Positions 17,546-63,667 of a stretch of DNA of 64,000 bases are shown in pieces. Location of the stretch: assembly GCA_963793265.1 (NCBI GenBank), contig CAWBZI010000006.1, positions 736,001 to 800,000 of the forward strand. Reading direction: 5' to 3'. A program made the translations under genes and the position numbers. This stretch comes from an uncultured cyanobacterium (lineage in GTDB: Bacteria; Cyanobacteriota; Cyanobacteriia; Phormidesmidales; Phormidesmidaceae). Under the pieces are notes generated by a model that did not search any database, had not been told where the DNA came from, and saw only the letters and a program-made list of their open reading frames with translations. Within the stretch, counting starts at the first letter, position 1. Each line of letters begins with the position of its first letter.

Positions 17546-18847
17546 ATGGTTAAGATTCTTCACCTGTCAGATATTCATATGGGTAGTGGCTTCAGTCACG
17601 GACGCATCAACCCTAAGACGGGTCTAAATACGCGGCTAGAGGATTTTACGCTGGCACTCAGAAGGTGTGTAGATAGTGCGATCGCTCAGCAAGTAGATCT
17701 CGTTCTCTTTGGCGGCGATGCCTTTCCTGACGCCACCCCACCGCCCTATATTCAACAAGCCTTTGCAACAGAATTCTGCCGCCTGGTTGCCGCAGGGATT
17801 CCGACTGTGCTACTCGTCGGCAACCACGATCAGCACGCCCAGGGTATCGGTGGTGCGAGCCTCTGTATCTACCGCACCCTCGGCGTCCCCGGCTTCATTG
17901 TTGGCGACACCCTCACCACCCATCGCATCGAAACCAAAGCAGGCCCCGTCCAAATTATCACGCTTCCCTGGCTTACCCGTTCCACGCTGCTCACCCGCCC
18001 CGAAACACAAGGACTCTCTATGGGAGAAGTCTCAGAGCTGTTATTAGATCGGCTGCGTGTTGTACTTGAAGCAGAAATTCGCAAGCTTGACAAAGAGATT
18101 CCGACTGTACTGCTTGCGCATTTAATGACAGATACAGCGCGCTATGGCGCAGAGCGATTTTTGGCGGTGGGCAAAGGCTTTACGGTACCAATGGCAATCT
18201 TAGCAAGAGATTGTTTTGACTATATAGCACTGGGTCATGTGCACAAATATCAAGAGGTTTGCAAGTCTCCTTTAGCGATTTATCCAGGCAGCATTGAGCG
18301 CGTAGATTTTAATGAGGAAAAAGAAGATAAAGGCTATATTTTGCTAGAGCTAGAGAAGGGGAAAGCGACGGCTGAGTTCTGTGCTTTACCGGCTAGAGTG
18401 TTTGAGACGTTGGCGGTTGATTTGACCCAAGAAGAGAAGCCGCAGGTGGCTTTGGTGGAGGCGATCGCGCAAGCCACTATCTGCGAGAAAGTCATCCGCC
18501 TAATCTACAAAATCAGAGCCGATCAGGTAGAAGATATTGACAACAACGCTTTAGCAGCAGCCTTAGCAGAAGCCCATAGCTATACCATTCAGCCGCAGCT
18601 CATCAGCCAGCTTTCCAGACCTCGCCTGCCCGAACTTGGCGTAGATAGCTCGCTTTCGCCCATGAGCGCGCTAGAGGCTTATCTAGAAAATAGAGAAGAT
18701 TTGAATACGTTAGCGCCAGATATTCTCGTAGCGGCCCAGGGACTTCTAGCGCAAGATCCTCACGGAGACAAAGCCATCGTTGCCTTAGAAGAAGTTGGCG
18801 AGGCAAGTATAGAGGTAGAAGATACGCGGCAGCTAAGGTTGCTATAG
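17546..18847 (+). CDS. sbcD: Exonuclease SbcCD subunit D
   Basis: HLSDIH, GGDAF, GNHD, LGHVH, YPGSIERVDFNE. Confidence 0.92.
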   Translation: MVKILHLSDIHMGSGFSHGRINPKTGLNTRLEDFTLALRRCVDSAIAQQVDLVLFGGDAFPDATPPPYIQQAFATEFCRLVAAGIPTVLLVGNHDQHAQGIGGASLCIYRTLGVPGFIVGDTLTTHRIETKAGPVQIITLPWLTRSTLLTRPETQGLSMGEVSELLLDRLRVVLEAEIRKLDKEIPTVLLAHLMTDTARYGAERFLAVGKGFTVPMAILARDCFDYIALGHVHKYQEVCKSPLAIYPGSIERVDFNEEKEDKGYILLELEKGKATAEFCALPARVFETLAVDLTQEEKPQVALVEAIAQATICEKVIRLIYKIRADQVEDIDNNALAAALAEAHSYTIQPQLISQLSRPRLPELGVDSSLSPMSALEAYLENREDLNTLAPDILVAAQGLLAQDPHGDKAIVALEEVGEASIEVEDTRQLRLL

Positions 18848-18873
18848 GGTCAAAATACTACTGTCAAAATACT

Positions 18874-18921
18874 ACATAGGAAGCCCGAAGATAAACAATG
18901 TCATCTTCGGGCTTCCTATGT
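18874..18921. terminator. Long perfect inverted repeat between convergent sbcD and catalase, probable terminator
   Basis: ACATAGGAAGCCCGAAGAT (18874-18892) / ATCTTCGGGCTTCCTATGT (18903-18921), 19-bp stem. Confidence 0.75.
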
Positions 18922-18926
18922 TTACT

Positions 18927-18955
18927 GTAGGGGCATAGCATTGCTATATCCCTAC
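18927..18955. repeat. REP-like dispersed palindrome, copy 1
   Basis: GTAGGGGCATAGCATTGCTATATCCCTAC; related copy at 55116-55143. Confidence 0.6.
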
Positions 18956-18966
18956 GACTAAGAGCG

Positions 18967-20445
18967 CTACACAGAAGCAGGCTTCGGCTCGGGCTTCGGC
19001 GGCTTCACTTCACTACACGCCGTTGTCACGCGCTCAGCAAAATGCTCGTCTATCTCACGGAACAAAGCAATCTGCCGCTCGCGAATAGAGTCTCTGCACT
19101 TACCTAGAGAGCCACCAATATTGTGAACCAGGCGATCTTTCTCGTCATCGTTCAGCATGTTGTAATACATGCGAGCCTGATCGGCGTAGTCCTTATCCTC
19201 CTCTAAGTTAATCCGATCGGCCATGCCTTCCACCTTGTACGGCGGCGTAGCAGCTCGCTTGTCAGCCTGCGGATACTTGTACTCAGTGGGGTGGTAGTTC
19301 TGACGGCTGCCGTAGTTACCATCTACCCGCATAGAGCCGTCGCGATAAGTCGTGTTGGCCTCCGTAGCATGAGGCTTATTCACCGGAATCGTGTCGTAGT
19401 TTACGCCCAAACGGTAGCGGTGCGCGTCGGCATACGACATAATCCTAGCCTGCAACATGCGATCGGGAGAAGCCGCAATACCCGGCACCATATTGCCAGG
19501 AGAGAAAGCAGCCTGCTCTACTTCAGCAAAGAAGTTCTCAGGATTTCGGTTTAGCTCAAAGCGACCGACTTTTTGCAAAGGGTAGTCTCCATGGGGCCAA
19601 ATCTTAGTGAGATCAAATGGGTTCCACTGGAAGCTTTGCGCTTGCTCATCGGTCATGGTTTGAATGTACATTGTCCACGATGGATAGTTACCTTCATCAA
19701 TGGCATTGAACAAATCCTTTGTCGCCCAGCGAGGCTCTACGCCCTGTAACTTCGTCCACTGCTCTTCAGTGAAGTTTCTAATGCCCTGGTCAGTGAGGAA
19801 GTGAAACTTCACCCAGGTGCGCTCTTCACTGTCGTTAATAAAGCTAAAGGTGTGTGAGCCATAGCCGTTTATATGACGCCAGCCCATCGGGGCACCGCGA
19901 TCGCCCATTAGCCACACGACCTGATGCAAACTCTCGGGTACCTGCGACCAGAAGTCCCACCACATTTCATCCTGTCGCCAGTTGGCTTCAGGATGCTCCT
20001 TTTGCGAGCGAATAAAGTCCATAAACTTCATCGGATCGCGCATGAAAAAGATCGGCGTACCGTTGCCCACCATGTCCCAGTTGCCATCTTCAGTGTAAAA
20101 CTTCACTGAAAAGCCGCGCAGGTCACGGTAGATATCAGAGCCGCCTTTTGACTTTGCCACCGTAGAAAAGCGAGCAAACACTTCTGTCTCTTTGCCCACT
20201 TCGCCAAATAGCTTGGCCTTAGTAAGGTGAGTAATATCGTCAGTCACCGTGAACTTGCCGTATGCGCCTGCACCAATCGCGTGAACAACACGCTCAGGAA
20301 TCCGCTCCCGGTTAAAGTGCGCCATTTTCTCTAGCAAATCGTAGTCCTCCATCAGCAAAGGGCCATACTTGCCCGCTGTTTTGGAAACTTCGTTGTTTGC
20401 AATAGGCACGCCCGCAGCATTTGTCAGCGTATTGTTGTCAGCCAT
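18967..20445 (-). CDS. Monofunctional small-subunit heme catalase
   Basis: FNRERIPERVVHA (distal His), RFSTV, RGFSVKFYT, RIMSYADAHRYR (proximal Tyr). Confidence 0.95.
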   Translation of the reverse strand: MADNNTLTNAAGVPIANNEVSKTAGKYGPLLMEDYDLLEKMAHFNRERIPERVVHAIGAGAYGKFTVTDDITHLTKAKLFGEVGKETEVFARFSTVAKSKGGSDIYRDLRGFSVKFYTEDGNWDMVGNGTPIFFMRDPMKFMDFIRSQKEHPEANWRQDEMWWDFWSQVPESLHQVVWLMGDRGAPMGWRHINGYGSHTFSFINDSEERTWVKFHFLTDQGIRNFTEEQWTKLQGVEPRWATKDLFNAIDEGNYPSWTMYIQTMTDEQAQSFQWNPFDLTKIWPHGDYPLQKVGRFELNRNPENFFAEVEQAAFSPGNMVPGIAASPDRMLQARIMSYADAHRYRLGVNYDTIPVNKPHATEANTTYRDGSMRVDGNYGSRQNYHPTEYKYPQADKRAATPPYKVEGMADRINLEEDKDYADQARMYYNMLNDDEKDRLVHNIGGSLGKCRDSIRERQIALFREIDEHFAERVTTACSEVKPPKPEPKPASV

Positions 20446-20623
20446 AAGAGATTTTAGTTTTGTTGAGTCAGTTTAAAACTTTAAAGGGAGTCCAAACGGC
20501 TAGCCTCTATCAAAGGGGTTGATTGACCTTAGAGGTTAGGACGACTAAACAATTTTTATCAAAACGGGCAACCTAACGGTGGGTCTAGTTCGCCACAAAA
20601 TCACTGTTTGTCGCAGAATCGCT

Positions 20624-21706
20624 ATGGAAGCACAAGTCACCGCTGCTCTAAAAGCTAGTAACTATAAGCAGGCCGCTAAACTGCTTAAGCAGTGGCAGGC
20701 CCAAGATCCTCAAAGTCCGCTGCTAAGACTGTATGCCGGACAGCTACAAGAGCAAACAAATCGGCCTGAGGCCGCTGAAAAAAACTATCTTAAGCTGCTT
20801 AAGCAAACGCCTAATAGCAAGATCATGAATCAGGCGCGGGCGGGCATTGAGCGCATTGCCCGGCAGCGAGAGCATCAGAAGGCAGCGGCGCTGAGCCAGG
20901 CTAAGACGGTGAGTGGGGGTGATGAGATAGCGGTTTTAGCGATCGCCACGCCCCCCGAAGCCAGCCGAGCCCAAGCTATCCAGGGCGTTGCCAATATCTT
21001 CAATCTAGACGCCTACACTGCCCGCATGAAAGTCCCTTCAAGTGGCTTTCGCCTGCACCGCATAGGTTCCTGGGGCGAAATTAACTATTACCAAAAGGCG
21101 CTCGGACAGACAAACGTGCCGACGCTAAGCGCCAAAATCAGCCATATCAAAACGCTACAGACATTCCAGGTCTGCTATTTCGAGGCGTTAACGCCTCAGC
21201 CTGCTGTCATTTGTAAAAATGCAGAAGGTCAGCTCGGGAAGATTGAATTTACCTGGGCAGAAGTAAGCCAGAGGGTGAGCGGTCAGCTACCTATTTTTGA
21301 GCAGGTTGTAGATATTGGCAACTGGGGTAAAACAGTTCACAAAGAGAAAGTGCAAGACTATGTGCAGGTTGTTGATCTTCATTTAAAGGAGAGAGAGATT
21401 GTTGTGAGGCTGTGCGATCGCCTCTACCAATATCAAAAAAGCACTCCTCTTTCCACTACAGCCGATAAAGCAGGCAGTCACAACAAGCTCAACAGCCGTA
21501 TCCAGTGGAATCATCTTCTCACCCACCTTAACCAGTCAATAGAATCCCCCCACCACAGCGACTTCACCCGCTTCGGCAAAGGAGCCCTAGAATTCATCAA
21601 CCTATTACCACCCATTCATCCCAACCTAGATATTGACCGCCGCGCCCCTAGCCACTGGGATCAGGCTTTCCACCTCTACAGCAGCCTTTGCTACTTCAAT
21701 AACTAA
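20624..21706 (+). CDS. TPR-containing cyanobacterial hypothetical protein
   Basis: N-terminal TPR-like helices (YKQAAKLL, AEKNYLKLL); ATG 20624. Confidence 0.7.
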   Translation: MEAQVTAALKASNYKQAAKLLKQWQAQDPQSPLLRLYAGQLQEQTNRPEAAEKNYLKLLKQTPNSKIMNQARAGIERIARQREHQKAAALSQAKTVSGGDEIAVLAIATPPEASRAQAIQGVANIFNLDAYTARMKVPSSGFRLHRIGSWGEINYYQKALGQTNVPTLSAKISHIKTLQTFQVCYFEALTPQPAVICKNAEGQLGKIEFTWAEVSQRVSGQLPIFEQVVDIGNWGKTVHKEKVQDYVQVVDLHLKEREIVVRLCDRLYQYQKSTPLSTTADKAGSHNKLNSRIQWNHLLTHLNQSIESPHHSDFTRFGKGALEFINLLPPIHPNLDIDRRAPSHWDQAFHLYSSLCYFNN

Positions 21707-21789
21707 GAAAGTCTAGCAATCCAACGAAAGAACCAGCGAAAGTCTATAATCCATCAAGGACGTAAGTTGGGAAAAAAGGAGTTTTAGCT

Positions 21790-22089
21790 ATGACACAGCA
21801 GCTAGCCGTCGTACTAGAATAAGCAACCGCTCTCTCCTCGAACGATAAGCTTATTCTTATTGCTCACTTAGCACAGCTTACACAGAGCGATATTGAGCAA
21901 GCAGAGCCTATATCCCAAGATGAGCCTAATGTTGTAGACACCAATGCTTCCGATTCAGTGAAGTCCATTGAAGTCCATTTTGGGAATCACAGCAGCCTTC
22001 GCTGCTAATGTGCCCGATGAAGTACTCGCAAAGCTGCCGAGAGATGGCGCAGAGCAACACGATCACTATATCTATGGCACATCCAAAAC
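21790..22089 (+). pseudogene. Disrupted antitoxin-like gene
   Basis: RBS AAGGAG, ATG 21790, premature TAA 21820-21822, 10-bp duplication GAAGTCCATT at 21960-21979 causing a frameshift; repaired C-terminus VPDEVLAKLPRDGAEQHDHYIYGTSK. Confidence 0.7.
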
Positions 22090-22725
22090 CTATCCTTCCC
22101 TCTCTCTGAGAGCTTTAGGCATGTAGGCGCGATCGCCCATTCGCTGCAAAAGCGGCCCATACTTACCAAAGCTCACCACGCTCAAAGACGCTGCTGGGTA
22201 GTCAAGGCGATCGCGATACCGCCCCAAATCAATTCCTAACAAACTGCACAGCACAATCCGCAGCGTCGTCCGATGCGCCACCACCAGCACATTCCCTTCC
22301 GTGTGCTTCTCTTCTATCTCTGCAATCACGGCCATTGCGCGATTACGAATTTCTACCGCTGTCTCGCCGCCCGTTGGCGCATTCCACGCCGGTTCAGTCA
22401 TCCAGTCATAGTTATCATCGCCATAAAGCTCTCTCACTTCGGCCTTGCTCTTACCTTCCCACTCGCCATAGTTACACTCACGCAACCCGTCGCGATACAC
22501 TGGCTCTAGTCCGGTTGCCTGAGCAATCGGTGCAGCCGTTGCCCGCGTCCGCTTCATCGGGCTACAGTAAATTGCTTGCCACTTCAGCGACTTGTACTCG
22601 TCAGCAAATGCCTGTGCCATCTCGCGGCCCGCGTCTGTTAAATCGGCCTCTATGGTGCCGCAGAAGTTGCCGCTCATGCTGAAAGTCGTTTCACCATGTC
22701 GCAGAAAGTAAAGTTTCAGGCTCAT
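22090..22725 (-). CDS. Histidine phosphatase (phosphoglycerate mutase family)
   Basis: LRHGET, SPMKR, E-x-x-YGEWEG, GGET, VVAH. Confidence 0.92.
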   Translation of the reverse strand: MSLKLYFLRHGETTFSMSGNFCGTIEADLTDAGREMAQAFADEYKSLKWQAIYCSPMKRTRATAAPIAQATGLEPVYRDGLRECNYGEWEGKSKAEVRELYGDDNYDWMTEPAWNAPTGGETAVEIRNRAMAVIAEIEEKHTEGNVLVVAHRTTLRIVLCSLLGIDLGRYRDRLDYPAASLSVVSFGKYGPLLQRMGDRAYMPKALREREG

Positions 22726-22763
22726 AATGATTGGGGTATGTAGTAGGGCACCTATAGTTTACG

Positions 22764-25620: not shown

Positions 25621-25942
25621 AGCTGTAGACGGGAGAGCGCAGCCAGACTTCGTTTCACTTTAAAAAGTAAAACAAAACCTGACTACAAAACAAACGTGCT
25701 TCCTGATGGTTATTCCCAAACTACTCTGCACTTGATAAACGGAGAATAAAGGTCTTATCAACTTTATTTGAAGCTTTTTCTATAACTTCAAACATTCGCT
25801 GACCTGAGAAATCCGAAGCAATCCGAACTATTCTCACAAATCGTTGCAAGTAACCGCAGGTAGTCGTAGAAACTACAGACCTCAGCACTGTCTATCTATC
25901 AGCGATCGCCCCACACTTTCTGCACATGTCCACTCGTACAGC

Positions 25943-29395: not shown

Positions 29396-29773
29396 TTAGT
29401 AGCTGCCATCTTTAGTCGCGGCAAGCTGCCATTCGGAGCGTTGACTGCGCTTGTAAGCGCTAAAGCCGTTGAGCAGTGAGGCCACAACGCCGAGGGTAAG
29501 GGCGATCGCAACCACGCCTTCTAGGCGATCGCCACCCCCAAATACCATCAAAAATCGACTCATCTGTTCGTATATAGGGTTTGAAATTATGCCAAGCGGC
29601 GATACATTAAGCGCCACTAGCACACCCAACAAGCAGCCCAGTACACTGACCGATAGCAAAAATCCAGCTACCAAAGTTACTGCTAGTGACCGAAGAAAAT
29701 GTAATAAGGTAGCCATGATGAGATAAAACGCAGTATTCGTTTTAAAAGCTTGGGTTCGACTCTCGAACACCAT
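29396..29773 (-). CDS. Small membrane hypothetical protein
   Basis: Two hydrophobic segments; fills the gap between peptidase and mlaE; start may be 29716. Confidence 0.65.
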   Translation of the reverse strand: MVFESRTQAFKTNTAFYLIMATLLHFLRSLAVTLVAGFLLSVSVLGCLLGVLVALNVSPLGIISNPIYEQMSRFLMVFGGGDRLEGVVAIALTLGVVASLLNGFSAYKRSQRSEWQLAATKDGSY

Positions 29774-32992: not shown

Positions 32993-33817
32993 TCAAGCGC
33001 TAGGCGGCTGAGGTTTGCCCAGCTCTCGCGATCGCGAACTTGCCACCCGTACGGCCTCAATCAGCGCCGAGCGCAGCCCCAACTCTTCTAAGCAGGCAAT
33101 CCCCGCAATGGTCGTGCCGCCAGGACTGGTTACTCTATCTTTCAGCTCGGCTGGGTGTATTCCTGTTTTTTGCACAAGCTCAGCGGTGCCTAGCACGGTC
33201 TGAACGGCAAGCTGATTTGCGATCACTCTAGGCAATCCCGACGCCACCCCGCCATCAGCTAGCGCCTCAATTACAATCGACACATAGCCTGGCCCCGAGC
33301 CTGAAAGCCCCGTTACCGCGTCCATCATGACCTCGGGCACCTGCACCACCTGACCAACGGCGGAGAATATTTCGTGAGCCAGCTTGCCGTGCTGAGGTGA
33401 GGTGCGAGAGCCGAGTGCGATCGCTGTCATTCCCGCACCCACCGTCGAAGGCGTATTTGGCATCGCTCTGACTACTGGCCAGCCCGGCACAGCATCTTCT
33501 AGCTTACTTAGCGGCACTCCAGCCAAGATTGAAAGTACTAAGGGCGGCGTTTCGCAGCGTGCGCCCTGAAAATCTTGTGCCACCAGTGAAAAAATCTGGG
33601 GCTTGATGGCCAGCAAAATGACCTTGCCTGATTCAATCACCGTTCGGTTGCTGTCGGTTGTCTGTATGCCGTACTGTTCGGCTAGCACCTCGCGACGTTC
33701 GGGCGAAGGTTCGCCCACTATCATCTCATCAGGAGCATATAGCCCCTGAGAAAGAAGGCGAGATAATAGAGCTTCCCCCATTACCCCGCCGCCAATCATG
33801 CCAAGTCTTACAGGCAA
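32993..33817 (-). CDS. proC: Pyrroline-5-carboxylate reductase
   Basis: IGGGVMG, RAMPNTP, TGLSGSGP, VTSPGGTT. Confidence 0.95.
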   Translation of the reverse strand: MPVRLGMIGGGVMGEALLSRLLSQGLYAPDEMIVGEPSPERREVLAEQYGIQTTDSNRTVIESGKVILLAIKPQIFSLVAQDFQGARCETPPLVLSILAGVPLSKLEDAVPGWPVVRAMPNTPSTVGAGMTAIALGSRTSPQHGKLAHEIFSAVGQVVQVPEVMMDAVTGLSGSGPGYVSIVIEALADGGVASGLPRVIANQLAVQTVLGTAELVQKTGIHPAELKDRVTSPGGTTIAGIACLEELGLRSALIEAVRVASSRSRELGKPQPPSA

Positions 33818-37846: not shown

Positions 37847-38794
37847 TTAAGCAACGCCTCCTAATACAATTCGGCCCCACCAAAACAAAGCCAGTCCGCC
37901 CATCACCAGCCAGTCCCACCAGCGCAGTCGAAGCTGATGCCACACCACGCGATGCTCACTCGGGCTGGTAAATCCTCTCACCTGCATAGCACTAGCAATC
38001 TGCTCAGCGCGCAACAGCAAATTTTCAATCAGTCGCTCTGACACCATCAGCCAAATCTGGATCGCGCCCCGTACGCCCAGCTTTTGCCACTTAATCGCGC
38101 GGGTGCGAATCGATCTCACTAAGTTTTGGACTTCTTCGAGTACCAGTGGAATAAACCGCAGCGCTAGCGTTAGGGTCAGCGCTACTTCGGTGACTGGAAT
38201 ACCTAGTTTTTTTAGCGGCTGCATCAGGTCTTCAATGCCTTCGGTGATTTCTTCGGGCGCAGTCGTGAGCAAAAATAAGGTGGTTGAATAGATTAGCGTA
38301 AATAGCAGCGTGCTAATTTTGATGGCAATTCGGCGCGATCGCTGCGTGATATAAATGCCTAAATTAATCGGTCTTTTGGCAATTTCGATATTAACGATGT
38401 CATACCGATAGCGCGTAGCGTCGGGCACTTCCGGCAGCATTTCAGGCGGCGTCACATCATTCGGCCAGTCTTGCAAAGCTTGAGGCGTAGGCAACCGGGG
38501 CTGCTGAGATATCGCGATGCCATCAGGCGACACCAGCACCAACGCGGTGATCAAACAACCCAGCAGCAGCAGCCAGCCCATTTGCTGTCGCCACACACGC
38601 AGCGGAATACGGGCGCTAATCGTGAGCAGCACCAAAAACAAAACGAGAGCGATACGATATATCTCATTAGCCAAAACCGGGGCGAGTAGTATGCTCAGTA
38701 GCCAGATGGTTTTGACACGAGCATCAATGCGGTGAAGCCAGGTGACCGGCTGTTCTAGATAGAGGCCGATGGGGAGCGATCGCAATAAATCCAT
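37847..38794 (-). CDS. ECF transporter T component (CbiQ/Ycf92-like)
   Basis: MDLLRSLPIGLYLE, LALRFIP, AMQVRGF. Confidence 0.88.
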   Translation of the reverse strand: MDLLRSLPIGLYLEQPVTWLHRIDARVKTIWLLSILLAPVLANEIYRIALVLFLVLLTISARIPLRVWRQQMGWLLLLGCLITALVLVSPDGIAISQQPRLPTPQALQDWPNDVTPPEMLPEVPDATRYRYDIVNIEIAKRPINLGIYITQRSRRIAIKISTLLFTLIYSTTLFLLTTAPEEITEGIEDLMQPLKKLGIPVTEVALTLTLALRFIPLVLEEVQNLVRSIRTRAIKWQKLGVRGAIQIWLMVSERLIENLLLRAEQIASAMQVRGFTSPSEHRVVWHQLRLRWWDWLVMGGLALFWWGRIVLGGVA

Positions 38795-38814
38795 AGCAAT
38801 ACTTTAGAGCCCGC

Positions 38815-40203
38815 CTAGTTCATCCGGCCAACTTTAGTGGCTCTGTTAGCGCCCGAAGCCCGTTCCAGATCGCGCATACTCTTGCCGCGCCACATCAGTC
38901 GAATCGGCGTACCGTCATAGCCTAAGTTTTTACGAAACTGCTTTTCCATGTAGCGGCGATAGCTTTCGCCAAAGAGCTTAGGGTCGTTGACGAACAGGGC
39001 AAAAGAAGGGGGCTGCGATCGCACCTGAGTCCCGTAATAAATTCGCCCCTGCCGCCCTTGCCGTGTAGTCGGCGGCGTATGCCAGCTCACCGAATCTGCA
39101 ATCACTTCATTGACTACCGAAGTCGTCACCCGGCGGCGATGCTGCTCTACCGAGGCATCTACTGCATCTAAGATATTCGGCAACCGCTGCCCGGTCAGCG
39201 CGCTCACGTACAGCCGCTTTGCCCAGCCCAGAAAGTGCAGCTTCGCTTCAATCGTCTTATCAAACTCATAAATAGTGTGCGAATCCTTATCAATCGCATC
39301 CCACTTATTTACCACAATCACGCAGGCCCGGCCTTCTTCCTCAATTCGCCCCGCCAGCTTTTGATCCTGCTCCGTTACCCCGTCTAGTGCATCCACAACC
39401 AACAGCACCACGTCGGCTCGTTTAATCGCCTTAAAAGCACGGTTAATCCCAAAGAACTCTGGGCCAAAGTTCACATTTTTCTTCTTACGAATGCCCGCCG
39501 TATCAATCAGTCGGTAGCGCTTAAGATCGTCGCCCTCGCCACGGGTAACGACCATATCAATTGAGTCACGCGTCGTCCCTGAAATTGGGCTCACAATCGA
39601 CCGACTCTCACCGACAAAGGCATTCAGCATACTAGACTTACCCACGTTGGGCCGTCCTACAATCGCCACGCGATATTCTTCAATCTCTTCAATCTCATCA
39701 GTCGGCGGTAAATGCTCTACCAGTATGTCCAGCAGCTCGCCCGTACCGCTGCCGTGAATTGCTGACACCGGGTAGGGCTCACCGAGTCCTAGCTCCCAAA
39801 ACTGCGCCGCCTGAATCAAGCCTTCATCTGGCGACTCACACTTATTCACAGCCAGCAAAACCGGCACGCCCTGAGTGCGCAGCCAGCTTGCAATTTCCTG
39901 ATCGCCTTCGGTCGGGCCAAACTGCCCATCTACAACGAAAATAGCCGCAGACGCTTCAGTCAGCGCCGCCAGCGCTTGCTCGCGAATGAACGGTAAGAAT
40001 TCTGTATTGTCATCAAAAACCAGTCCGCCTGTGTCTACGACCAAAAAGTCGCGGTCTTTCCAAAAGGCAGGTTGATAGGTGCGATCGCGCGTCACCCCCG
40101 GCAGATCAAACACAATCGACTGCCGCCCGCCCGCCAACCGGTTCACCAGCGCCGACTTGCCCACATTAGGGCGACCAATAACAGCAACAATCGGAAGAAC
40201 CAT
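38815..40203 (-). CDS. der: Ribosome biogenesis GTPase Der (EngA)
   Basis: Two GRPNVGKS P-loops, DTGG / DTAG, NKCE / NKWD; ATG 40203. Confidence 0.96.
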
Positions 40204-47002: not shown

Positions 47003-48091
47003 ATGCCACCTAGCGTTTCCACTTCCCTACGGCCCCGTTTGATCATGACACTGGGCGATCCATCAGGTATTGGCCCAGAAGTCGTCCTCAAAACGCTGAG
47101 CGATCCAAAGTTCGAGGCATCAGCAGATATTACGGTTATTGGCGATCGCACCCACCTAAACACCACCTACACCACACTCAAAGCCACTAATCCCCAAGCC
47201 CCGCTCAGAGATCCTGACAGCCTGACGATAATAGATATAGAGGCCCCCAAATCTGTCACGGCGGGTCTGATCAACGGTGTCGGCAACAGCAGCAGCGGTG
47301 AAATCAGCTTCCGAACACTGCAAAAGGCGATCGCACACACCAACGCAGGCGAATTTGACGGCATCGTCACGGCTCCTATCGCCAAATCAGCCTGGCTCGC
47401 CGCTGGTCACGCCTACCCCGGACAAACCGAACTACTCGCAGAAATGTCTGACACCTCAAAGTTCGGAATGCTGTTTGTGGCCCAGTCTCCGCACAACGGC
47501 TGGACGATGCGGACTTTGCTTGCCACCACGCATATTCCGCTCAAAGACGTGCCGGTTGCACTGACGCCAGATCTGATGACGCTAAAGCTAGAGCTATTGA
47601 TTGACTGCTTGCAAAGAGATTTTGGTTTGAGTGAGGCGAAAATTGCGATTGCTGGACTCAACCCACACAGCGGCGAACAGGGCCAGCTAGGCCGCGAAGA
47701 ACAGGACTGGCTGATTCCCTGGATGCAGCAGCAACAGCAGCGCTTTCCAGATATCAAATTAGAAGGGCCGACGCCCCCTGATACGCTTTGGGTAGCACCA
47801 GGTACGGCATGGCACAGCGACCAGCTAAGACCTGCACATGATGGATACCTAGCGCTCTATCACGATCAGGGGTTGATTCCAGTCAAGCTCCTGGCTTTCG
47901 ATTTAGCTGTGAATACCACTATTGGGCTACCGTTCGTACGCACCTCGCCCGATCACGGTACGGCCTTTAATATTGCGGGGCAGGGGATAGCGCGATCGCA
48001 AAGCACCGAAGCTGCCCTTAACCTAGCCATTCAGCTCACCACCCAGCGGCTATCCAGCGCTCAGAATAGCACTCAGAACAGCGCCAACTGA
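47003..48091 (+). CDS. pdxA: 4-hydroxythreonine-4-phosphate dehydrogenase
   Basis: [39 protein letters not shown]. Confidence 0.95.
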
Positions 48092-60514: not shown

Positions 60515-61363
60515 ATGAATGTCTTGGTGAGCAATGACGATGGGGTTTTCGCGCTGGGCATTCGGACGCTGGCGAATGCGCTAGCGGCGGCTGGGCATCA
60601 GGTGACGGTGGTGTGTCCTGATCGCGAACGCTCTGCAACGGGTCACGGGCTTACGCTGCACAGACCTTTACGAGTAGATCAGGTAGAGAACGTTTTTGAT
60701 CCGAAAGTCACTGCCTGGGCTAGTTCGGGCACACCGTCTGACTGCGTGAAGCTGGCTTTGGATGCACTTTTGCCTGCGGCTCCTGACTTTGTGGTGTCGG
60801 GAATTAATCACGGGGCTAATTTGGGCACAGATGTGCTCTATTCGGGTACGGTGTCGGCGGCGATGGAGGGGGTTTTAGAAGGCATTCCAGCGATCGCAAT
60901 CAGCCTCACTAGCTTCTCAGCCAAAAACTTCGACCCTTCTGCCCAATGCGCCGTTCAGCTCGTCTCCCAGCTAGAGCAGCAGCCGCTAAATCTGCCCATA
61001 TTGCTCAACGTCAACGTGCCACCCGTAGCAGCCGCAGACATTAAAGGCACGGTGATTGCTCGGCAGGGCGTTCGCCGGTATTTCGATCAGTTTGCAAAGC
61101 GCGTTGATCCTCGTGGTAAAACCTACTACTGGTTAGCAGGAGAAGTTATGGAGGAAGGAGAGGCTGAACTGGTGATCGATCACCAGGGAAAGAACGAAGC
61201 GGCGGCGATTGATAAAGAAATATCAGCTATTAATACGCAGTTTGTAACCGATGTGAAGGCTATTAAAGACAATTACATTACGATTACGCCGCTTCAGTAC
61301 AATCTGACGGCCTATACGGCGCTGGACTTCGTGCGCAGGCGATTATGTGATCGCAACCTCTGA
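60515..61363 (+). CDS. surE: 5'/3'-nucleotidase SurE
   Basis: [30 protein letters not shown]. Confidence 0.96.
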
Positions 61364-61632
61364 TAACAAAACTTTGCTAACGAAACTGTTACTAACAAAA
61401 GTCATTCTCATCAGTGAGGCAATCGTTAAGCTATGGAAAAGTACGACGCTGATGAAGGTGAAGCGAGCGAACTAAATTGATGAATATGGCAAGCTGCCAA
61501 TAGGGCTTGGGCATTATGCATGAAGGTATTCTGGTTTTGGAGCCGGTATTGGTGCGTCCTTTCACCTGATGAAGGGTGCGACTAGCTGTAAAAATAGACA
61601 GTAATTCCTCTAAATCACTTCATGTAAGGCTC

Positions 61633-62508
61633 ATGTCAGATCATCACGGTCAGTTTTCGATATGCTTTTGGGGCGTCCGGGGAAGTGTGGCCTGTCCTGG
61701 CTCCCAAACCGTTCGCTATGGTGGAAATACTGCCTGTATTGAGATGAGAGTCGGGGGTGAACGGCTGATTTTTGATGGGGGAACGGGGTTGCGCAACTTA
61801 GGTCAGCAAATGCTGCCTGAGATGCCAGTACACGCAAACATGTTTTTTACCCACTCTCATTGGGATCACATCCAGGGTTTTCCGTTCTTTGTACCTGCTT
61901 TTGTACCGGGCAATAAGTTTAAGATTCATGGGGCGATCGCACCCAACGGCTCCACTATCGAGCAGCGCCTAAACGATCAGATGCTGCACCCCAACTTTCC
62001 GGTGCCCCTACAAATCATGGGCGCAACGTTAGAGTTTTGTGACATTGAGGTAGGCGAGGTTATGAAAATTGGTGACGTTGAAATTAGCAATGCTATGCTC
62101 AACCATCCTGGCGAAGCGGTAGGCTACCGGGTGAGCTATCGCGGTCATTCAGCCGCGTACGTGAGCGATACTGAGCACTTCCCTGATCGGTTAGATGAGA
62201 ATGTGTTGCGACTGGCTAAAGATGCAGACGTAATGATTTACGACTGCACCTATACAGACGCGGAATATTACGACAAGAGCAATAGCAAGGTTGGCTGGGG
62301 TCATTCGACATGGCAGGAGGCTGTGAAGCTAGCGAAAGCAGCGAACGTTAAGCAGCTCGTAATTTTTCACCACGATCCTACGCATACGGATGAATTTATG
62401 GACGATATTGTTCGTCAAACATCGATTGCCTTGCCTAGCAGCGTTGTGGCGAAAGAAGGCATGGTGCTTGAGCTGATTAAAGAAGAGTCCGCTATGGCGG
62501 CAGTGTAG
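61633..62508 (+). CDS. Metallo-beta-lactamase-fold hydrolase
   Basis: WGVRGS, YGGNT, THSHWDHIQG, WGHST, FHHDP; ATG 61633. Confidence 0.9.
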   Translation: MSDHHGQFSICFWGVRGSVACPGSQTVRYGGNTACIEMRVGGERLIFDGGTGLRNLGQQMLPEMPVHANMFFTHSHWDHIQGFPFFVPAFVPGNKFKIHGAIAPNGSTIEQRLNDQMLHPNFPVPLQIMGATLEFCDIEVGEVMKIGDVEISNAMLNHPGEAVGYRVSYRGHSAAYVSDTEHFPDRLDENVLRLAKDADVMIYDCTYTDAEYYDKSNSKVGWGHSTWQEAVKLAKAANVKQLVIFHHDPTHTDEFMDDIVRQTSIALPSSVVAKEGMVLELIKEESAMAAV

Positions 62509-62578
62509 AAAAGAAGTCAGAGACGACTAAGCAGAAATAGAGCGCTGTACGGACTGGCTTTGTGTCAAAATGTGAAGC

Positions 62579-63667
62579 GTGCGGATTACTTCTTCTCTTA
62601 AGGCGGCGAAAACCCCTGTAAATATAGCGCTGGGCAATTTTGACGGCGTGCATTTGGGCCATCAGCGAGTGATGGCCGAGATTTTAGGTGGCCGGTTAAA
62701 TGACCTATTGTCACTGGCTGAACAACCAGCGATCGCCCCTTGTTTGAGCCCAGCTTCAGTATCAGACCTTCATCGTGGCGCGATCGCTCTTGACTACAAC
62801 TACCAAAATGCTGCATCCCACCACGACGGCCTTAATCTTCCAATCGGGCTGCAAGCCGAGTCAAATCTAGAAATCTACTCAACCGTTGTTACCTTTTCAC
62901 CGCATCCCCAGGAGTATTTCTCAGGCGTATCGAAGCCTTTGCTCACGCCCGTTGCAGAAAAAGCATGGCAGTTATCTCAGCTAGGGATTCATCAGCTTGT
63001 GATGCTGCCTTTCAATCAGGCAATGGCTGAGCTGAGCCCTGAGGAGTTTGTTAAGCGAATTTTGATTGATGGGTTGCAGACGAAAAGAATCAGCGTCGGC
63101 AGCGATTTTCGCTTTGGCAAAGGCCGCGCAGGGGATGCGAATGGATTGCAGGCGATCGCCCAAAGTCATAACGTCCCGGTCGTGCAGGTGCCGTTGAGAC
63201 TGGAGGAGGGCGATCGCATCAGTAGCTCCAAAATTCGCACCGCCCTACAAGCTGGCGATCCTCAACAGGCCGCTCGTCTGCTAGGTCGTCCTTACACATT
63301 GACCGGGCGCGTTGTGAAAGGAAAGCAATTGGGCCGTACAATTGGCTTCCCAACCGCGAATTTGCAGGTGCCCGCCGAGAAGTATCTACCTTGCACAGGT
63401 GTTTATAGCGTTCGGGTATATGGCGCACAAGCTGAATCTTCAGAGCCCTTAAGAGGTGTGATGAATATTGGCAATCGGCCTACAGTTGAGGGGCGATCGC
63501 TCAGCGTAGAAGTCCATTTGCTCGACTGGATAGGAGATCTGTACGGACAGCTTTTGACCGTTACGCTAGAAGGCTTTGTACGGCCCGAGCAAAAGTTTGA
63601 GTCACTAGCGCAGCTTAGAGCGCAGATTGCCGAGGATTGTCAGGTAGCAATCGCGCTCTTAAAATAA
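62579..63667 (+). CDS. ribF: Bifunctional riboflavin kinase / FAD synthetase
   Basis: GNFDGVHLGH, ISSSKIR, GRTIGFPTAN, EVHLLD. Confidence 0.96.
   Translation: MRITSSLKAAKTPVNIALGNFDGVHLGHQRVMAEILGGRLNDLLSLAEQPAIAPCLSPASVSDLHRGAIALDYNYQNAASHHDGLNLPIGLQAESNLEIYSTVVTFSPHPQEYFSGVSKPLLTPVAEKAWQLSQLGIHQLVMLPFNQAMAELSPEEFVKRILIDGLQTKRISVGSDFRFGKGRAGDANGLQAIAQSHNVPVVQVPLRLEEGDRISSSKIRTALQAGDPQQAARLLGRPYTLTGRVVKGKQLGRTIGFPTANLQVPAEKYLPCTGVYSVRVYGAQAESSEPLRGVMNIGNRPTVEGRSLSVEVHLLDWIGDLYGQLLTVTLEGFVRPEQKFESLAQLRAQIAEDCQVAIALLK

What the first reader, a model, noticed from the sequence alone, without database searches (positions are those of the whole stretch)
17546..63500. Base composition flips at HIP1 sites: G/T-rich before, C/A-rich after, on either gene strand
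Seen, by hand counts on the + strand: HIP1 20939 has 14 G / 2 C at 20901-20930 and 15 C / 6 G at 20951-20980. HIP1 60890 has 19 G / 5 C at 60841-60880 and 16 C / 4 G at 60901-60940. After HIP1 47142, 47151-47200 has 25 C / 2 G inside a + strand gene. Before HIP1 33417, 33391-33410 has 11 G / 2 C inside a - strand gene. The same look occurs at 29502, 38776 and 40081. The pattern is its own reverse complement, so it is centred on the palindrome and is not explained by transcription or replichore direction. Established: HIP1 function is unresolved and the site contains methylated GATC/CGATCG cores. Inference: a process starting at HIP1 (nick or break, then 5'->3' excision or resection) repeatedly leaves the strand 5' of the site single-stranded, where C->T and A->G changes accumulate. 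That would be the footprint of a HIP1-directed repair or recombination system. My examples were picked by eye and may be biased, and I cannot confirm the pattern is unreported.
Basis: partly seen in the sequence, partly recalled or inferred. Interest (0 to 1): 0.85.

Follow-up and report, generated by a model that had tools for sequence, protein, structure and literature searches.

The report
G-to-C strand flip at HIP1
In this cyanobacterium nearly every copy of the abundant palindrome GCGATCGC (HIP1) sits where the DNA switches from G-rich to C-rich, mostly at silent codon positions and fading over about a kilobase, which suggests that a one-directional DNA repair or recombination step is anchored at this long-unexplained word.

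Summary
All six hand counts are exact. In the stated range, 47 of 49 HIP1 sites lean G-rich before and C-rich after. Genome-wide, 84% of about 6,887 sites do so, against 47% of random positions. No other palindrome or hexamer shows the flip. It is concentrated at synonymous sites: four-fold G 0.47 / C 0.11 upstream, mirrored downstream, with A and T unchanged. It reaches about 1 kb. It crosses into opposite-strand neighbouring genes and is independent of chromosomal region. Between two congeners it follows the presence of HIP1.

The proposed chemistry (C→T plus A→G) is not: a one-parameter G-versus-C preference fits far better.

The flip is widespread but varies in strength: the single-offset index is positive in 85 of 85 HIP1-rich genomes sampled. 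One very HIP1-dense genome has no flip.

My best reading is strand-polar excision/resynthesis from HIP1 with biased mismatch correction. A mutational version remains open.

I found no published description. The scan has noted this pattern before, in this genome and in others.

The parts
17678..63500 (.). 49 HIP1 octamers (GCGATCGC) in the finding's range. Each sits at a switch from G>C on its 5' side to C>G on its 3' side, read on either strand.
   Evidence: Site list. Per-site G and C counts in the 60-nt flanks: 47 of 49 have D>0, mean 0.210.
20876..21009 (.). HIP1 at 20939-20946 with its 60-nt flanks. Left G27/C10, right G13/C22, D +0.43.
60827..60960 (.). HIP1 at 60890-60897 with flanks. 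Left G24/C9, right G9/C24, D +0.50, the strongest in the range.
47079..47212 (.). HIP1 at 47142-47149 with flanks. Left G14/C14, right G5/C27, D +0.37.
33354..33487 (.). HIP1 at 33417-33424 with flanks. Left G23/C14, right G15/C23, D +0.28.
29439..29595 (.). Two HIP1 sites 23 nt apart (29502 and 29525) with flanks. D +0.32 and +0.12.
38713..38846 (.). HIP1 at 38776-38783 with flanks, D +0.23.
40018..40151 (.). HIP1 at 40081-40088 with flanks, D +0.23.
22066..22199 (.). HIP1 at 22129-22136, one of the two sites in the range without the flip (D -0.05). It lies 78 nt from the next HIP1 at 22207, so the two fields overlap.
63430..63563 (.). HIP1 at 63493-63500, the other site without the flip (D 0.00).
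852..16671 (.). 20 further HIP1 sites in the window but outside the finding's range. They show the same behaviour: whole window 64 of 69 with D>0.

Best explanation
HIP1 anchors a strand-polar DNA transaction that acts the same way on both strands.

Proposed mechanism: a nick or cut at, or recognised through, GCGATCGC lets one strand be removed and resynthesised in the 5'->3' direction away from the site. The tract runs from tens of bases up to about 1 kb. On each side of HIP1, the strand that runs 5'->3' into the site is therefore the one kept as template. Where this tract meets a mismatch, the kept strand wins. Mismatches would arise in heteroduplex between chromosome copies of a polyploid cell, with transformed DNA, or after replication. 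Mismatches are not all handled equally: G-containing ones are acted on and C-containing ones escape. The result is a conversion bias that favours G and disfavours C on the kept strand. Over evolutionary time this writes a G-rich 5' flank and a C-rich 3' flank around every HIP1. It shows mostly at silent codon positions, with some spill-over into amino-acid usage.

Shown here:
- the pattern is anchored on and specific to HIP1;
- it acts at the DNA level;
- it is symmetric on both strands;
- it reaches about 1 kb;
- it has the form of a per-base G-versus-C preference;
- it depends on HIP1 being present;
- its strength varies between lineages.

Inferred, not shown:
- the nick;
- which strand is removed;
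- the involvement of heteroduplex and of MutS/MutL;
- that the bias acts on fixation rather than on mutation.
For: Specificity:
- 23 of 24 other abundant palindromic octamers are flat. The exception, ATCGCGAT, is the overlap of two tandem HIP1s.
- Of 24 one-mismatch variants lying more than 250 nt from a true HIP1, only GTGATCGC and GCGATCAC keep the full flip. These are the C->T products at position 2.
- Of 2,041 hexamer classes more than 300 nt from a HIP1, the largest mean D is 0.047, and those words are HIP1 remnants.

Synonymous sites:
- The four-fold GC-skew shift is +0.64 / -0.56 next to the site, against +0.18 / -0.21 at codon position 1 and +0.18 / -0.15 at position 2.
- All three reading frames of HIP1 behave alike.

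Form of the bias:
- GC content, A and T are unchanged.
- Log-odds shifts at two-fold sites equal those at four-fold sites. For example, downstream C/T is +0.54/+0.54, +0.44/+0.44 and +0.31/+0.31.
- A single parameter g fits all four bases on both sides: g = 0.56, 0.41, 0.29, 0.19, 0.12, 0.08 with increasing distance.
- A strand-polar mismatch-recognition model requires S_G+S_C = S_A+S_T. The observed difference is about 0.05, against effects of about 1.1.

DNA level:
- The skew continues into convergent opposite-strand genes (+0.385, n=156 at 61-120 nt; +0.128, n=1025 at 201-300 nt).
- It also continues into divergent ones (+0.160, n=495 at 201-300 nt). Values within the same gene are +0.257 and +0.109.
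- 414 intergenic sites have mean D 0.115, with 72% >0.

Not replication-linked: both halves are present in 29 of 29 bins of 200 kb. Regional skew is equally present more than 700 nt from any HIP1 (slope 0.96).

Dependence on HIP1 (ortholog comparison with a congener, G004):
- Sites shared by both species: D 0.186 and 0.218.
- Lineage-specific sites (324 + 318): D 0.13-0.18 in the genome that has the HIP1, and 0.00-0.03 at the orthologous place in the genome without it.

Range: about 1 kb for isolated sites. That is similar to the mean HIP1 spacing of 824 bp, and to the ~1 kb reach of methyl-directed repair that Elhai cites (section 3.4 of PMC4390886).

Context:
- MutS and MutL are present in the focal genome.
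- In another species, a HIP1 in a homology arm raises transformation, independently of AddAB (abstract and discussion of bioRxiv 10.1101/2024.09.10.611283).
Against: - No nicking enzyme was identified. MutH, Vsr and NucS were not found over the cut-off in the genomes searched.
- I could not run any test that separates fixation bias from mutation bias. The nearest species held are only 66-76% identical in DNA. Strain contigs gave only 40 visible variant places. The metagenome scan returned no close strains.
- The equality of two-fold and four-fold shifts is also expected if transitions dominate mutation. They made up 98 of 120 young variant places in run X1.
- As I recall it (no call), the E. 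coli MutS hierarchy explains G over C. It does not obviously explain the observed G over T and A over C.
- G017 has dense HIP1 and MutS but no flip. So HIP1 plus MutS is not sufficient.
- The data cannot tell a tract that starts at HIP1 from one that ends there, nor which strand is replaced.
Confidence: 0.4

Rival explanations
1. Mutational version, closest to the reader's idea. HIP1 is repeatedly cut or nicked. Resection or excision in the 5'->3' direction leaves the strand 5' of the site single-stranded, or patch synthesis refills the gap. Damage on the exposed strand, or a biased polymerase or nucleotide pool during refilling, then produces strand-specific mutations: C lost to G, T and A, and G gained. 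These mutations set the local equilibrium composition.
For: - The geometry and sign match human meiotic break hotspots. There, C>N and A>N accumulate on the strand left single-stranded by resection, with C>G prominent (passages of PMC7615360).
- C is lost to all three other bases and G is gained from all three.
- A dCTP-high / dGTP-low bias during strand-specific resynthesis would by itself give a one-parameter additive field like the one fitted (my inference).
- No heteroduplex is needed.
Against: - Plain deamination is excluded as the main cause. T does not rise and GC content is unchanged.
- To shift transition equilibria by about e^0.55 out to tens of bases from about 6,900 sites, HIP1-linked mutations would have to rival background transitions.
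- No excess of young variants near HIP1 is visible: 10 of the 40 listed places lie within 100 nt of a HIP1, about the 25% share I estimate such DNA takes of the stretch, and 6 of those 10 form one cluster (my hand count on the table; very low power).
- A Y-family polymerase is not found in the focal genome and shows no relation to flip strength across 121 genomes.
- Exact GC neutrality would be a coincidence under this model.
Confidence: 0.3
2. Selection on the flanks. A G-rich, C-poor strand leading into HIP1 is itself useful, for example for loading a recombination or uptake protein on the 3' tail. Natural selection on each base would then maintain it.
For: - A per-base additive preference is also what selection on strand composition would give.
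- HIP1 is conserved: 462 of 845 aligned sites are shared with a congener at 75% amino-acid identity. It has been argued to be under selection (abstract and passages of PMC5861425).
- HIP1 in a homology arm improves transformation.
Against: - It would need effective selection on single silent bases hundreds of nt from each of about 6,900 sites. The smooth decay to 1 kb looks more like a tract-length distribution.
- No specific motif is enriched beyond general G-richness.
- T is not favoured, although RecA is known to prefer GT-rich DNA (recalled, no call).
- A HIP1-dense genome has no flip at all.
Confidence: 0.12
3. RNA-level or structural cause. The G-rich arm and the C-rich arm would pair around HIP1 as a hairpin or cruciform, or the pattern would serve the mRNA that contains the site.
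For: - The pattern is identical in the sense orientation for genes on either strand, as any mRNA-level rule centred on a palindrome would be.
- A G-rich arm and a C-rich arm have complementary compositions.
Against: - Mirrored positions -k/+k are no more complementary than their compositions predict. The excess is within +/-0.005 for k = 4-90 and is -0.045 for k = 1-3.
- The skew crosses into genes on the opposite strand whose transcripts should not contain that HIP1.
- The range of about 1 kb is far beyond a local hairpin.
Confidence: 0.03
4. Artefact or trivial by-product. Candidates are codon context of the HIP1 reading frames, a repeat family with HIP1 at its centre, assembly error at methylated motifs, or the reader's choice of examples.
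For: - HIP1 prefers certain reading frames (2934 / 2054 / 1259 of 6,247 sites).
- This gives a small codon-phase effect at single offsets: 0.002-0.018 measured at the same phase far away, and at most about 0.04 by my estimate.
Against: - All three frames give the same flip.
- The shift is a unimodal displacement of all sites, not a subfamily.
- Shifts at each codon position were measured against that position's own baseline.
- Orthologous places without HIP1 are flat.
- The pattern recurs in independently assembled genomes and in metagenome contigs.
Confidence: 0.01

Closest known systems
HIP1 (GCGATCGC) of cyanobacteria, and Elhai's proposed G-meC-directed mismatch repair (Life 2015, PMC4390886; section 3.4 read)
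   Same: Same motif, same hyper-abundance and same conservation. Elhai postulates that a methylated HIP1 is the strand signal where a MutH-like enzyme nicks and MutS/MutL-dependent excision starts, with a reach of about 1 kb. That matches the range measured here.
   Different: The model concerns how HIP1 itself arises. It chooses the strand by methylation (parent versus daughter), not by side, so it predicts no left/right flip. The paper examined flanks only for conserved palindromic extensions; 'skew' and 'asymmetr' occur 0 times in it. No MutH analogue is known or was found.
Strand-asymmetric mutation around human meiotic double-strand-break hotspots (Hinch et al. 2023, PMC7615360; passages read)
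   Same: A site-centred, mirror-image asymmetry. C>N and A>N fall on the strand that runs 5'->3' into the break, which is single-stranded after resection. The complements fall on the other side. The scale is hundreds of bases to 2 kb, and C>G is prominent.
   Different: That is a de novo mutation signal in a eukaryote, attributed to deaminases and REV1-type polymerases. Here the signal is an equilibrium composition at about 6,900 sequence-defined sites in a bacterium. T is not enriched, GC content is unchanged, and no break has been shown.
Methyl-directed mismatch repair of E. coli (Dam, MutH, MutS, MutL); recalled, and as summarised in PMC4390886
   Same: A short methylated palindrome containing GATC serves as the entry point for strand excision over up to about 1 kb. 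MutS and MutL are present here.
   Different: MutH was not found (0 of 5 genomes). E. coli excision works from either side of the mismatch and leaves no known flank skew. GATC and CGATCG sites outside HIP1 show no flip here.
Very-short-patch repair (Vsr with Dcm) of E. coli; recalled
   Same: A C5-methylated site whose deaminated T:G product is nicked 5' of the T and refilled 5'->3'. It is known to distort oligonucleotide frequencies. Here GTGATCGC / GCGATCAC are the commonest decay products of HIP1.
   Different: Vsr was not found (0 of 5). Patches there are about 10-20 nt (recalled), against about 1 kb here. Presence of the focal genus's C5 methyltransferase ortholog is unrelated to flip strength.
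GC-biased gene conversion through nick-directed mismatch repair (Lesecque et al. 2013, PMC3649680) and flap-directed mismatch resolution (Pokusaeva et al. 2022, PMC9001825). For the first I saw only the search listing with the start of its abstract. For the second I read the abstract and outline.
   Same: A repair bias in heteroduplex, set by where the strand discontinuity lies, changes base composition as selection would.
   Different: Those biases favour GC over AT and have no strand sign. Here GC content is unchanged, and the bias is G against C with a sign that flips at a fixed sequence.
Replication-associated GC skew, with sign change at origin and terminus (recalled), and bidirectional asymmetries at human CpG islands (PMC2817419, search listing only)
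   Same: A change of sign of GC skew at a defined point. G-rich followed by C-rich on one strand is the 'terminus-like' sign.
   Different: There are thousands of flips per genome instead of two. They add to the regional skew and are independent of it. At four-fold sites they are far stronger: G:C is about 4:1 next to the site.

Membership tests
HIP1, highly iterated palindrome of cyanobacteria | GCGATCGC is grossly over-represented compared with chance and with other palindromes | tested here: met
   69 sites in the window against 1.75 expected. 6,888 in the genome, against 401 for the next palindromic octamer.
HIP1, highly iterated palindrome of cyanobacteria | Sites are conserved between species beyond the synonymous background | tested here: met
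   462 of 845 aligned G004 sites are HIP1 in the focal genome, although same-family four-fold sites are only 39.5% identical.
HIP1, highly iterated palindrome of cyanobacteria | Methyltransferases for CGATCG and GATC are present | tested here: inconclusive
   C5 methyltransferase matches are present (8 in G000, 1 in G004). Their specificity cannot be read from sequence with these tools. GATC methylases were not searched.
Methyl-directed mismatch repair (Dam/MutH type) | MutH endonuclease | tested here: not met
   PF02976 found in 0 of 5 genomes, with the E. coli control positive.
Methyl-directed mismatch repair (Dam/MutH type) | MutS and MutL | tested here: met
   MutS_I found in 5 of 5 genomes in each of two sets. 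MutL_C found in 4 of 5; not found in G019, which is 93% complete.
Methyl-directed mismatch repair (Dam/MutH type) | Nick placed on the unmethylated strand of a hemimethylated site | not testable with these tools
   Needs methylome and nick mapping.
Very-short-patch repair (Vsr/Dcm type) | Vsr endonuclease | tested here: not met
   PF03852 found in 0 of 5 genomes, with controls positive.
Very-short-patch repair (Vsr/Dcm type) | Patch of about ten to twenty bases (recalled figure) | tested here: not met
   The effect is measurable to 800-1000 nt at isolated sites.
Replication-associated GC skew | The sign depends on the replichore and changes only at origin and terminus | tested here: not met
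   Both halves are present in 29 of 29 bins of 200 kb. The regional skew is additive and equally present far from HIP1.
Transcription-associated strand asymmetry | The sign follows the gene strand and is constant along a transcript | tested here: not met
   The sign flips inside genes on either strand. Gene strand explains a McFadden R2 of 0.0003, against 0.040 for HIP1 distance. The skew crosses into opposite-strand genes.
Break-and-resection single-strand mutagenesis (meiotic hotspot type) | C>N and A>N on the strand running 5'->3' into the break, mirrored on the other side | tested here: inconclusive
   The sign matches, and C is lost to all three other bases. But T also gives way to G, A gains from C, T is not enriched, and GC content is unchanged. 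The matrix compares saturated sites, so it is a contrast of compositions, not a mutation spectrum.
Break-and-resection single-strand mutagenesis (meiotic hotspot type) | A physical break at the centre | not testable with these tools
   Only assembled contigs of public runs were available. No molecule ends can be seen in them.
Chi-type recombination hotspot (RecBCD/AddAB) | An asymmetric sequence recognised from one side by RecBCD/AddAB | tested here: not met
   HIP1 is a palindrome, seen directly in the sequence. In another species the HIP1 effect on transformation survived deletion of addAB (discussion of bioRxiv 10.1101/2024.09.10.611283). Not tested in this organism.
Extended palindrome / hairpin or REP-like element | Flanks complementary in register | tested here: not met
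   No excess of mirrored complementarity over what composition predicts, for k = 4-90.

The most novel reading that the evidence does not exclude
HIP1 is the sequence-defined entry signal of a cyanobacterial long-patch repair and gene-conversion system that lacks MutH and runs one way (5'->3') from the site on each strand.

Its unequal handling of G-containing and C-containing mismatches would act as a molecular drive. That drive would:
(i) keep HIP1 itself hyper-abundant and conserved;
(ii) write a kilobase-scale sawtooth into codon usage across the whole genome;
(iii) shift amino-acid usage measurably.

The lineage with dense HIP1 but no flip would be a natural knock-out of the biased step.
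Probability: 0.3. Interest if true: 0.92.

Novelty: new variant of a known kind. Interest (0 to 1): 0.85.

Why it matters
HIP1 has been known since 1993 and occurs about once per kilobase in most cyanobacteria, but its function is still open (introductions of PMC5861425 and PMC13756078).

What the flank footprint adds:
- It gives that question a direction, a length scale and a strand rule. Whatever acts at HIP1 treats the strand entering the site differently from the strand leaving it, over up to about 1 kb, on both strands alike.
- This can be tested directly by nick or end mapping, by marked heteroduplex transformation, and by mutation-accumulation or population data.
- The natural contrast between strong-flip and no-flip HIP1-rich lineages offers a comparative route to the genes responsible.

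It also matters for genome evolution:
- Distance to HIP1 explains over a hundred times more of the synonymous G-versus-C choice than gene strand does (McFadden R2 0.040 against 0.0003).
- It shifts 53% of four-fold G/C sites by more than 0.2 log-odds.
- It moves amino-acid usage: Val, Glu, Gly and Met rise upstream; Thr, Asn, Ile and His rise downstream.

Codon-usage, selection and horizontal-transfer analyses in cyanobacteria that ignore this will be biased.

Tried and rejected
1. Extended palindrome or cruciform. There is no mirrored complementarity beyond what composition predicts.

2. A specific Chi-like motif in the G-rich flank. Only general G-rich words are enriched. GGTG is over-represented, but so is its complement CACC in the same flanks.

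3. A counter-motif where the skew flips back. None was found among 2,041 hexamer classes. The return is gradual (sawtooth).

4. Dependence on the HIP1-type C5 methyltransferase. This was suggested by 5 genomes. It was rejected on 121 genomes: families lacking the ortholog (f21 0.18, f14 0.14, f16 0.13) flip as strongly as, or more strongly than, families that have it (f5 0.108, f22 0.09).

5. Inverse dependence on a Y-family polymerase. It is present in the two no-flip genomes and was not found in three strong-flip ones. Rejected because it is also present in the strong-flip genomes G065, G132, G082 and G055.

6. NucS/EndoMS, MutH and Vsr as the nickase. None was found over the cut-off.

7. 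One-sided action depending on replication direction. Rejected.

8. One-sided decay at half-mutated sites. The flanks next to the mutated half and next to the intact half of GTGATCGC / GCGATCAC are alike.

9. Polarised substitution spectra from relatives. Not possible: the nearest species held are 66-76% identical in DNA, and four-fold sites are near saturation at 39.5% identity. For the same reason, the apparent additivity of the pair ratios is a mathematical consequence of saturation and carries no weight.

10. Young-variant or frequency-spectrum test from public runs.
- Four metagenome runs hold strains about 0.2-0.3% divergent, by my estimate from word shares.
- Only 40 of 165 variant places were listed, they cannot be polarised, and all data are contigs, so no molecule ends can be seen.

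11. Close strains from metagenome contigs. The best hit is 82% amino-acid identity. The only near-identical pair with HIP1 (L110/L111, 1.04% divergent, 10 sites) is too small.

12. The single-offset index overstates weak flips, because of codon phase. G017 scored 0.042 on the index but 0.006 +/- 0.006 by the phase-free measure.

Full report
**1. The observation**

The window is G000:C6:736001-800000 of a 5.68-Mb, 7-contig genome with GC 0.51. It holds 69 GCGATCGC sites, against 1.75 expected from dinucleotide-preserving shuffles.

I scored each site with D = (G-C)/60 in the left 60 nt minus the same on the right, skipping the 3 nt next to the site.
- In the stated range, 47 of 49 sites have D>0, with mean 0.210.
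- In the whole window, 64 of 69 do.
- Random window positions give mean 0.001, sd 0.13, and 47% positive.
- The T/A part of the claim is weak: mean difference 0.012, positive at 29 of 49 sites.

**2. Genome-wide metaplot and controls**

Over 6,886 sites the GC skew is +0.32 at -10..-1, +0.18 at -20..-11, +0.16, +0.14, +0.11 and so on. The 3' side mirrors this. AT skew is only about -0.04 before and +0.06 after, and GC content is unchanged.

The per-site distribution is a unimodal shift: mean 0.163, sd 0.154, 84.2% positive. For 20,000 random positions it is 0.000, 0.132 and 46.6%. So no subfamily of sites drives the mean.

Controls:
- Of the 24 next most abundant palindromic octamers (n = 136-401), 23 are flat (|skew| up to about 0.1). 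The exception, ATCGCGAT, is the overlap of two tandem HIP1s.
- Of the 24 one-mismatch variants lying more than 250 nt from a true HIP1, only GTGATCGC (n=195) and GCGATCAC (n=239) carry the full flip (about +0.26 / -0.25). These are the C->T transition products at position 2, and they are the commonest variants.
- CGATCG, GATC, GGCC, GCGC and CGCG away from HIP1 are flat.
- A de novo scan of 2,041 hexamer classes more than 300 nt from any HIP1 found no word with mean |D| above 0.047. The top words are HIP1 remnants, and there is no counter-motif.

**3. Where the signal sits**

I used my own crude ORF calls: at least 120 codons, longest first, covering 83-87% of each contig. The raw metaplot does not depend on them.

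In gene-sense orientation, GC skew minus the baseline for each codon position is:
- Four-fold sites, upstream: +0.635, +0.47, +0.36, +0.26, +0.17, +0.11 at 1-12, 13-30, 31-60, 61-99, 100-150 and 151-240 nt.
- Four-fold sites, downstream: -0.56, -0.42, -0.31, -0.20, -0.12, -0.055.
- Codon position 1: only +0.18 / -0.21 in the nearest bin. Position 2: +0.18 / -0.15.

Four-fold composition next to the site is A .186, C .111, G .468, T .234 upstream and A .195, C .449, G .121, T .235 downstream. The baseline is .191.287.276.246. Genes on either genome strand behave alike, and so do all three HIP1 reading frames.

Amino-acid usage moves too. Met, Glu, Val and Gly are 1.25-1.38 times more frequent upstream than downstream at 7-30 nt. 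Thr, Asn, Ile, His and Pro are 0.73-0.80 times.

Between consecutive sites, top-strand four-fold G/(G+C) climbs from 0.21-0.32 in the first decile to 0.65-0.78 in the last. This holds for every gap class, giving a sawtooth.

**4. Range and weight**

Fields of neighbouring sites cancel, so the simple metaplot understates the range. For sites with no other HIP1 within 1,500 nt on the far side, four-fold G/(G+C) in the frame of the strand entering the site is:

| Distance (nt) | G/(G+C) |
|---|---|
| 10-50 | 0.755 |
| 50-100 | 0.680 |
| 100-200 | 0.625 |
| 200-300 | 0.594 |
| 300-450 | 0.584 |
| 450-600 | 0.576 |
| 600-800 | 0.556 |
| 800-1000 | 0.536 |
| 1000-1500 | 0.519 |

The range is therefore about 1 kb, close to the mean HIP1 spacing of 824 bp.

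A logistic model on 413,442 four-fold G/C sites gives a McFadden R2 of 0.040 and AUC of 0.624 for HIP1 distance. Gene strand gives 0.0003 and 0.510. In the model, 53% of sites are shifted by more than 0.2 log-odds.

**5. DNA level, not transcript level**

To test this, I used four-fold sites whose only HIP1 within 450 nt lies in a different gene. The index in the entering-strand frame is:

| Flank location | 61-120 nt | 121-200 nt | 201-300 nt |
|---|---|---|---|
| Same gene | +0.257 | +0.157 | +0.109 |
| Convergent opposite-strand neighbour | +0.385 (n=156) | +0.055 (n=476) | +0.128 (n=1025) |
| Divergent neighbour | +0.28 (n=25) | +0.141 (n=149) | +0.160 (n=495) |
| Tandem neighbour | +0.34 | +0.17 | +0.10 |

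In addition, 414 sites with no called ORF within 63 nt have mean D 0.115, with 72% positive.

**6. Not replication**

In 29 bins of 200 kb on all 7 contigs, both halves of the flip are present: 0.161 sd 0.025 and 0.154 sd 0.023 after subtracting the regional skew. The left/right balance is unrelated to that skew (r = -0.07).

The regional skew (-0.065 to +0.08) is equally present in DNA more than 700 nt from any HIP1 (slope 0.96, r = 0.83). It is therefore a separate, additive layer.

**7. The flip follows HIP1**

I fetched 1 Mb of a congener, G004, holding 1,231 HIP1 sites, and aligned 629 ORF pairs by tblastn (median 75% amino-acid identity).

Of 845 G004 sites in aligned codons:
- 462 are HIP1 in the focal genome too (D 0.186 and 0.218).
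- 59 differ by one base. 38 of those are GTGATCGC or GCGATCAC, and D in the focal genome is still 0.185.
- 324 differ by two or more bases. D is 0.13-0.15 in G004 but 0.008-0.022 at the orthologous place in the focal genome.

The reverse set of 318 focal-only sites gives 0.14-0.18 against 0.002-0.032. So the flank composition is not a property of the gene position or the protein. Shared, older sites are stronger than lineage-specific ones.

At the 642 lineage-specific sites I compared aligned four-fold bases in the entering-strand frame. In the genome that has the site:
- G exceeds C: 1125 against 586.
- G exceeds A: 1046 against 691.
- G exceeds T: 826 against 575.
- T exceeds C: 761 against 581.
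- A exceeds C: 574 against 460.
- T and A are equal: 492 against 512.

C->T plus A->G account for 535 of 1,439 net differences. These sites are near saturation, so this is a controlled contrast of compositions, not a mutation spectrum.

**8. Form of the bias**

Log-odds shifts at two-fold sites match those at four-fold sites:
- G/A upstream: +0.55 at four-fold, +0.53 at two-fold.
- G/A downstream: -0.58 and -0.59.
- C/T downstream: +0.54/+0.54, +0.44/+0.44, +0.31/+0.31.
- C/T upstream is less exact: -0.59 against -0.78.

One parameter fits both sides: G +g, C -g, and A and T 0 on the entering strand. The fitted g is 0.56, 0.41, 0.29, 0.19, 0.12 and 0.08 with increasing distance. This beats a two-parameter transitions-only model by 1645, 840, 367 and 59 log-likelihood units in the four nearest bins. 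Beyond 150 nt the two-parameter model fits slightly better (by 106 and 135 units), which I put down to an imperfect baseline.

Plain deamination of an exposed strand is therefore not the main cause.

**9. Structural and motif rivals**

Mirrored positions are no more complementary than their compositions predict. No long motif stands out in the G-rich flank.

**10. Other lineages**

From 200 kb each:
- G004 matches the focal genome (+0.317, +0.162, +0.103 / -0.328, -0.209, -0.122).
- G019 is moderate.
- G020 is weak.
- G015, whose abundant palindrome is GGGATCCC (n=280), shows no flip.

I then used a whole-genome index: G against C at offset -21 from HIP1, counted on both strands by pattern searches. 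My own count for G000 is identical to the tool's (4301 against 2700). Among 121 genomes of the class, 85 have at least 800 counts. All 85 are positive: minimum 0.025, median 0.106, maximum 0.229. 79 exceed 0.065. The four genomes of the focal genus in the sample score 0.19-0.23.

The index carries a codon-phase artefact. At the same codon phase 600 and 900 nt away it is 0.018 and 0.002 in G000, and my own calculation puts it at no more than about 0.04.

Checked with real sequence and phase-free measures:
- G017 (index 0.042; 460 HIP1 in 200 kb, the densest of the stretches I fetched) has no flip. D is 0.006 +/- 0.006, 47.8% of sites are positive, and four-fold G/(G+C) is 0.455-0.470 on both sides.
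- G028 has a moderate flip. D is 0.079, 66% are positive, and four-fold G/(G+C) is 0.657 upstream and 0.432 downstream.

HIP1 abundance and the flip are therefore separable.

Metagenome contigs of relatives with at least 3 sites (L093-L111) again show mean D of 0.03-0.24.

**11. Candidate enzymes**

- MutH, Vsr and NucS were not found over the cut-off.
- MutS is found in all genomes tested. MutL_C is found in 4 of 5.
- Two leads that arose from five-genome comparisons both failed on the 121-genome sample. One was presence of the focal genus's C5 methyltransferase ortholog. The other was absence of a Y-family polymerase.

**12. Mechanism**

The data establish a HIP1-anchored, DNA-level, strand-symmetric and strand-polar process with a reach of about 1 kb. 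Its long-term effect is a G-over-C preference on the strand running 5'->3' into the site.

I favour biased correction of mismatches by an excision tract oriented from HIP1 (confidence 0.4), for these reasons:
- Such a model necessarily leaves GC content unchanged (S_G+S_C = S_A+S_T), as observed.
- It needs no large local increase in mutation rate.
- It fits the conservation and hyper-abundance of HIP1 itself.
- It fits the reported boost of transformation by a HIP1 in a homology arm.
- Its reach matches that quoted for mismatch repair.

The mutational version is the main rival (0.3). It invokes break or nick, resection or patch synthesis, then strand-specific damage or misincorporation. It has a documented analogue with the same geometry at human meiotic hotspots.

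I could not run the test that separates the two, because no close strains or populations were within reach. The data also cannot say which strand is replaced, or whether tracts start or end at HIP1.

**13. Prior knowledge**

I searched the held library for:
- 'highly iterated palindrome' with 'skew';
- 'HIP1' with 'GCGATCGC';
- HIP1 with codon usage;
- GCGATCGC with strand-bias terms;
- cyanobacteria, palindrome, synonymous codon and GC skew.

I also searched three HIP1 papers for skew, flank and asymmetry terms: PMC5861425, PMC13756078 and PMC4390886. For the fourth, bioRxiv 10.1101/2024.09.10.611283, I read only the abstract and the discussion. None of what I read describes a flank skew.

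Subscription-only papers are not in the library, so I cannot exclude a report there.

Earlier notes of this scan record the same pattern, in this genome and in four other genomes. They are not independent evidence. I re-derived the observation myself and added:
- the two-fold against four-fold comparison and the one-parameter analysis;
- the ortholog control;
- the cross-gene test;
- the regional additivity test;
- the 85-genome index;
- the no-flip HIP1-dense control;
- the rejected enzyme leads.

Noticed in passing
window 41300-55100: A stretch poor in HIP1: 5 sites in about 14 kb, against about 1 per 0.8 kb elsewhere. Its GC is lower (0.46-0.50, against 0.52-0.55 next to it). It encodes an OprB-type porin with an SLH domain, an NmrA-like protein, and a chemotaxis-like cluster: a response-regulator protein, CheW, and an MCP with GAF domains. 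It could be younger or foreign DNA.
   Followed up: partly
window 20860-20920: A strain contig of run X2 covers 20167-21279 and differs from the window at 6 places. All 6 lie within 80 nt on the 5' side of HIP1 20939. It looks like a short imported or converted patch that ends at a HIP1. This is a single case.
   Followed up: no
window 38596-38864: Low-depth strain contigs of X3 and X4 skip 115-135 nt (ending 43-44 nt before HIP1 38776) and 69 nt (starting 11 nt after it). There is no tandem repeat there. The tool warns that such joints in metagenomes may come from other organisms.
   Followed up: partly
genome-wide (G000) and G004 orthologs: GTGATCGC and GCGATCAC are the commonest one-mismatch relatives of HIP1: GTGATCGC has 350 copies, against at most 234 for the other 11 variants counted without exclusion. 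They make up 38 of the 59 one-base differences opposite G004 HIP1 sites. This is the pattern expected from deamination of a methylated C at position 2. Their flanks still carry about 80% of the flip.
   Followed up: partly
G000:C2:1-200000: This 200-kb bin has the usual HIP1 density (223 sites) but only about half the usual flip (0.075 / 0.091, against about 0.16 elsewhere). It might be a more recently acquired region.
   Followed up: no
positions -3..-1 and +1..+3 of all HIP1 sites in G000: G is enriched at -3..-1 and C at +1..+3. Yet the two sides are less often complementary at the same site than their frequencies predict (0.231 observed, 0.276 expected). So palindromic extension on both sides at once is disfavoured, probably because of codon constraints.
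   Followed up: no
G015 (L015-L024) and G017 (L173-L182): Two informative contrasts. One genome has GGGATCCC as its hyper-abundant palindrome (282 in 200 kb) with no flank flip. Another has very dense HIP1 (460 in 200 kb) with no flip.
   Followed up: partly
G000, several contigs (e.g. C1:809848-811017, C6:501121-502155, C6:511604-512638): The focal genome has 8 matches to the C5 cytosine methyltransferase family, where its congener G004 has 1. One match carries two in-frame stops, and two lie 10 kb apart on the window's own contig.
   Followed up: no
window 20001-40000, runs X1-X4: Differences from close strains are mostly transitions (98 of 120 places in X1). They lean towards window A/T where the strain has G/C: A>G 34 and T>C 28, against G>A 19 and C>T 17.
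   Followed up: no
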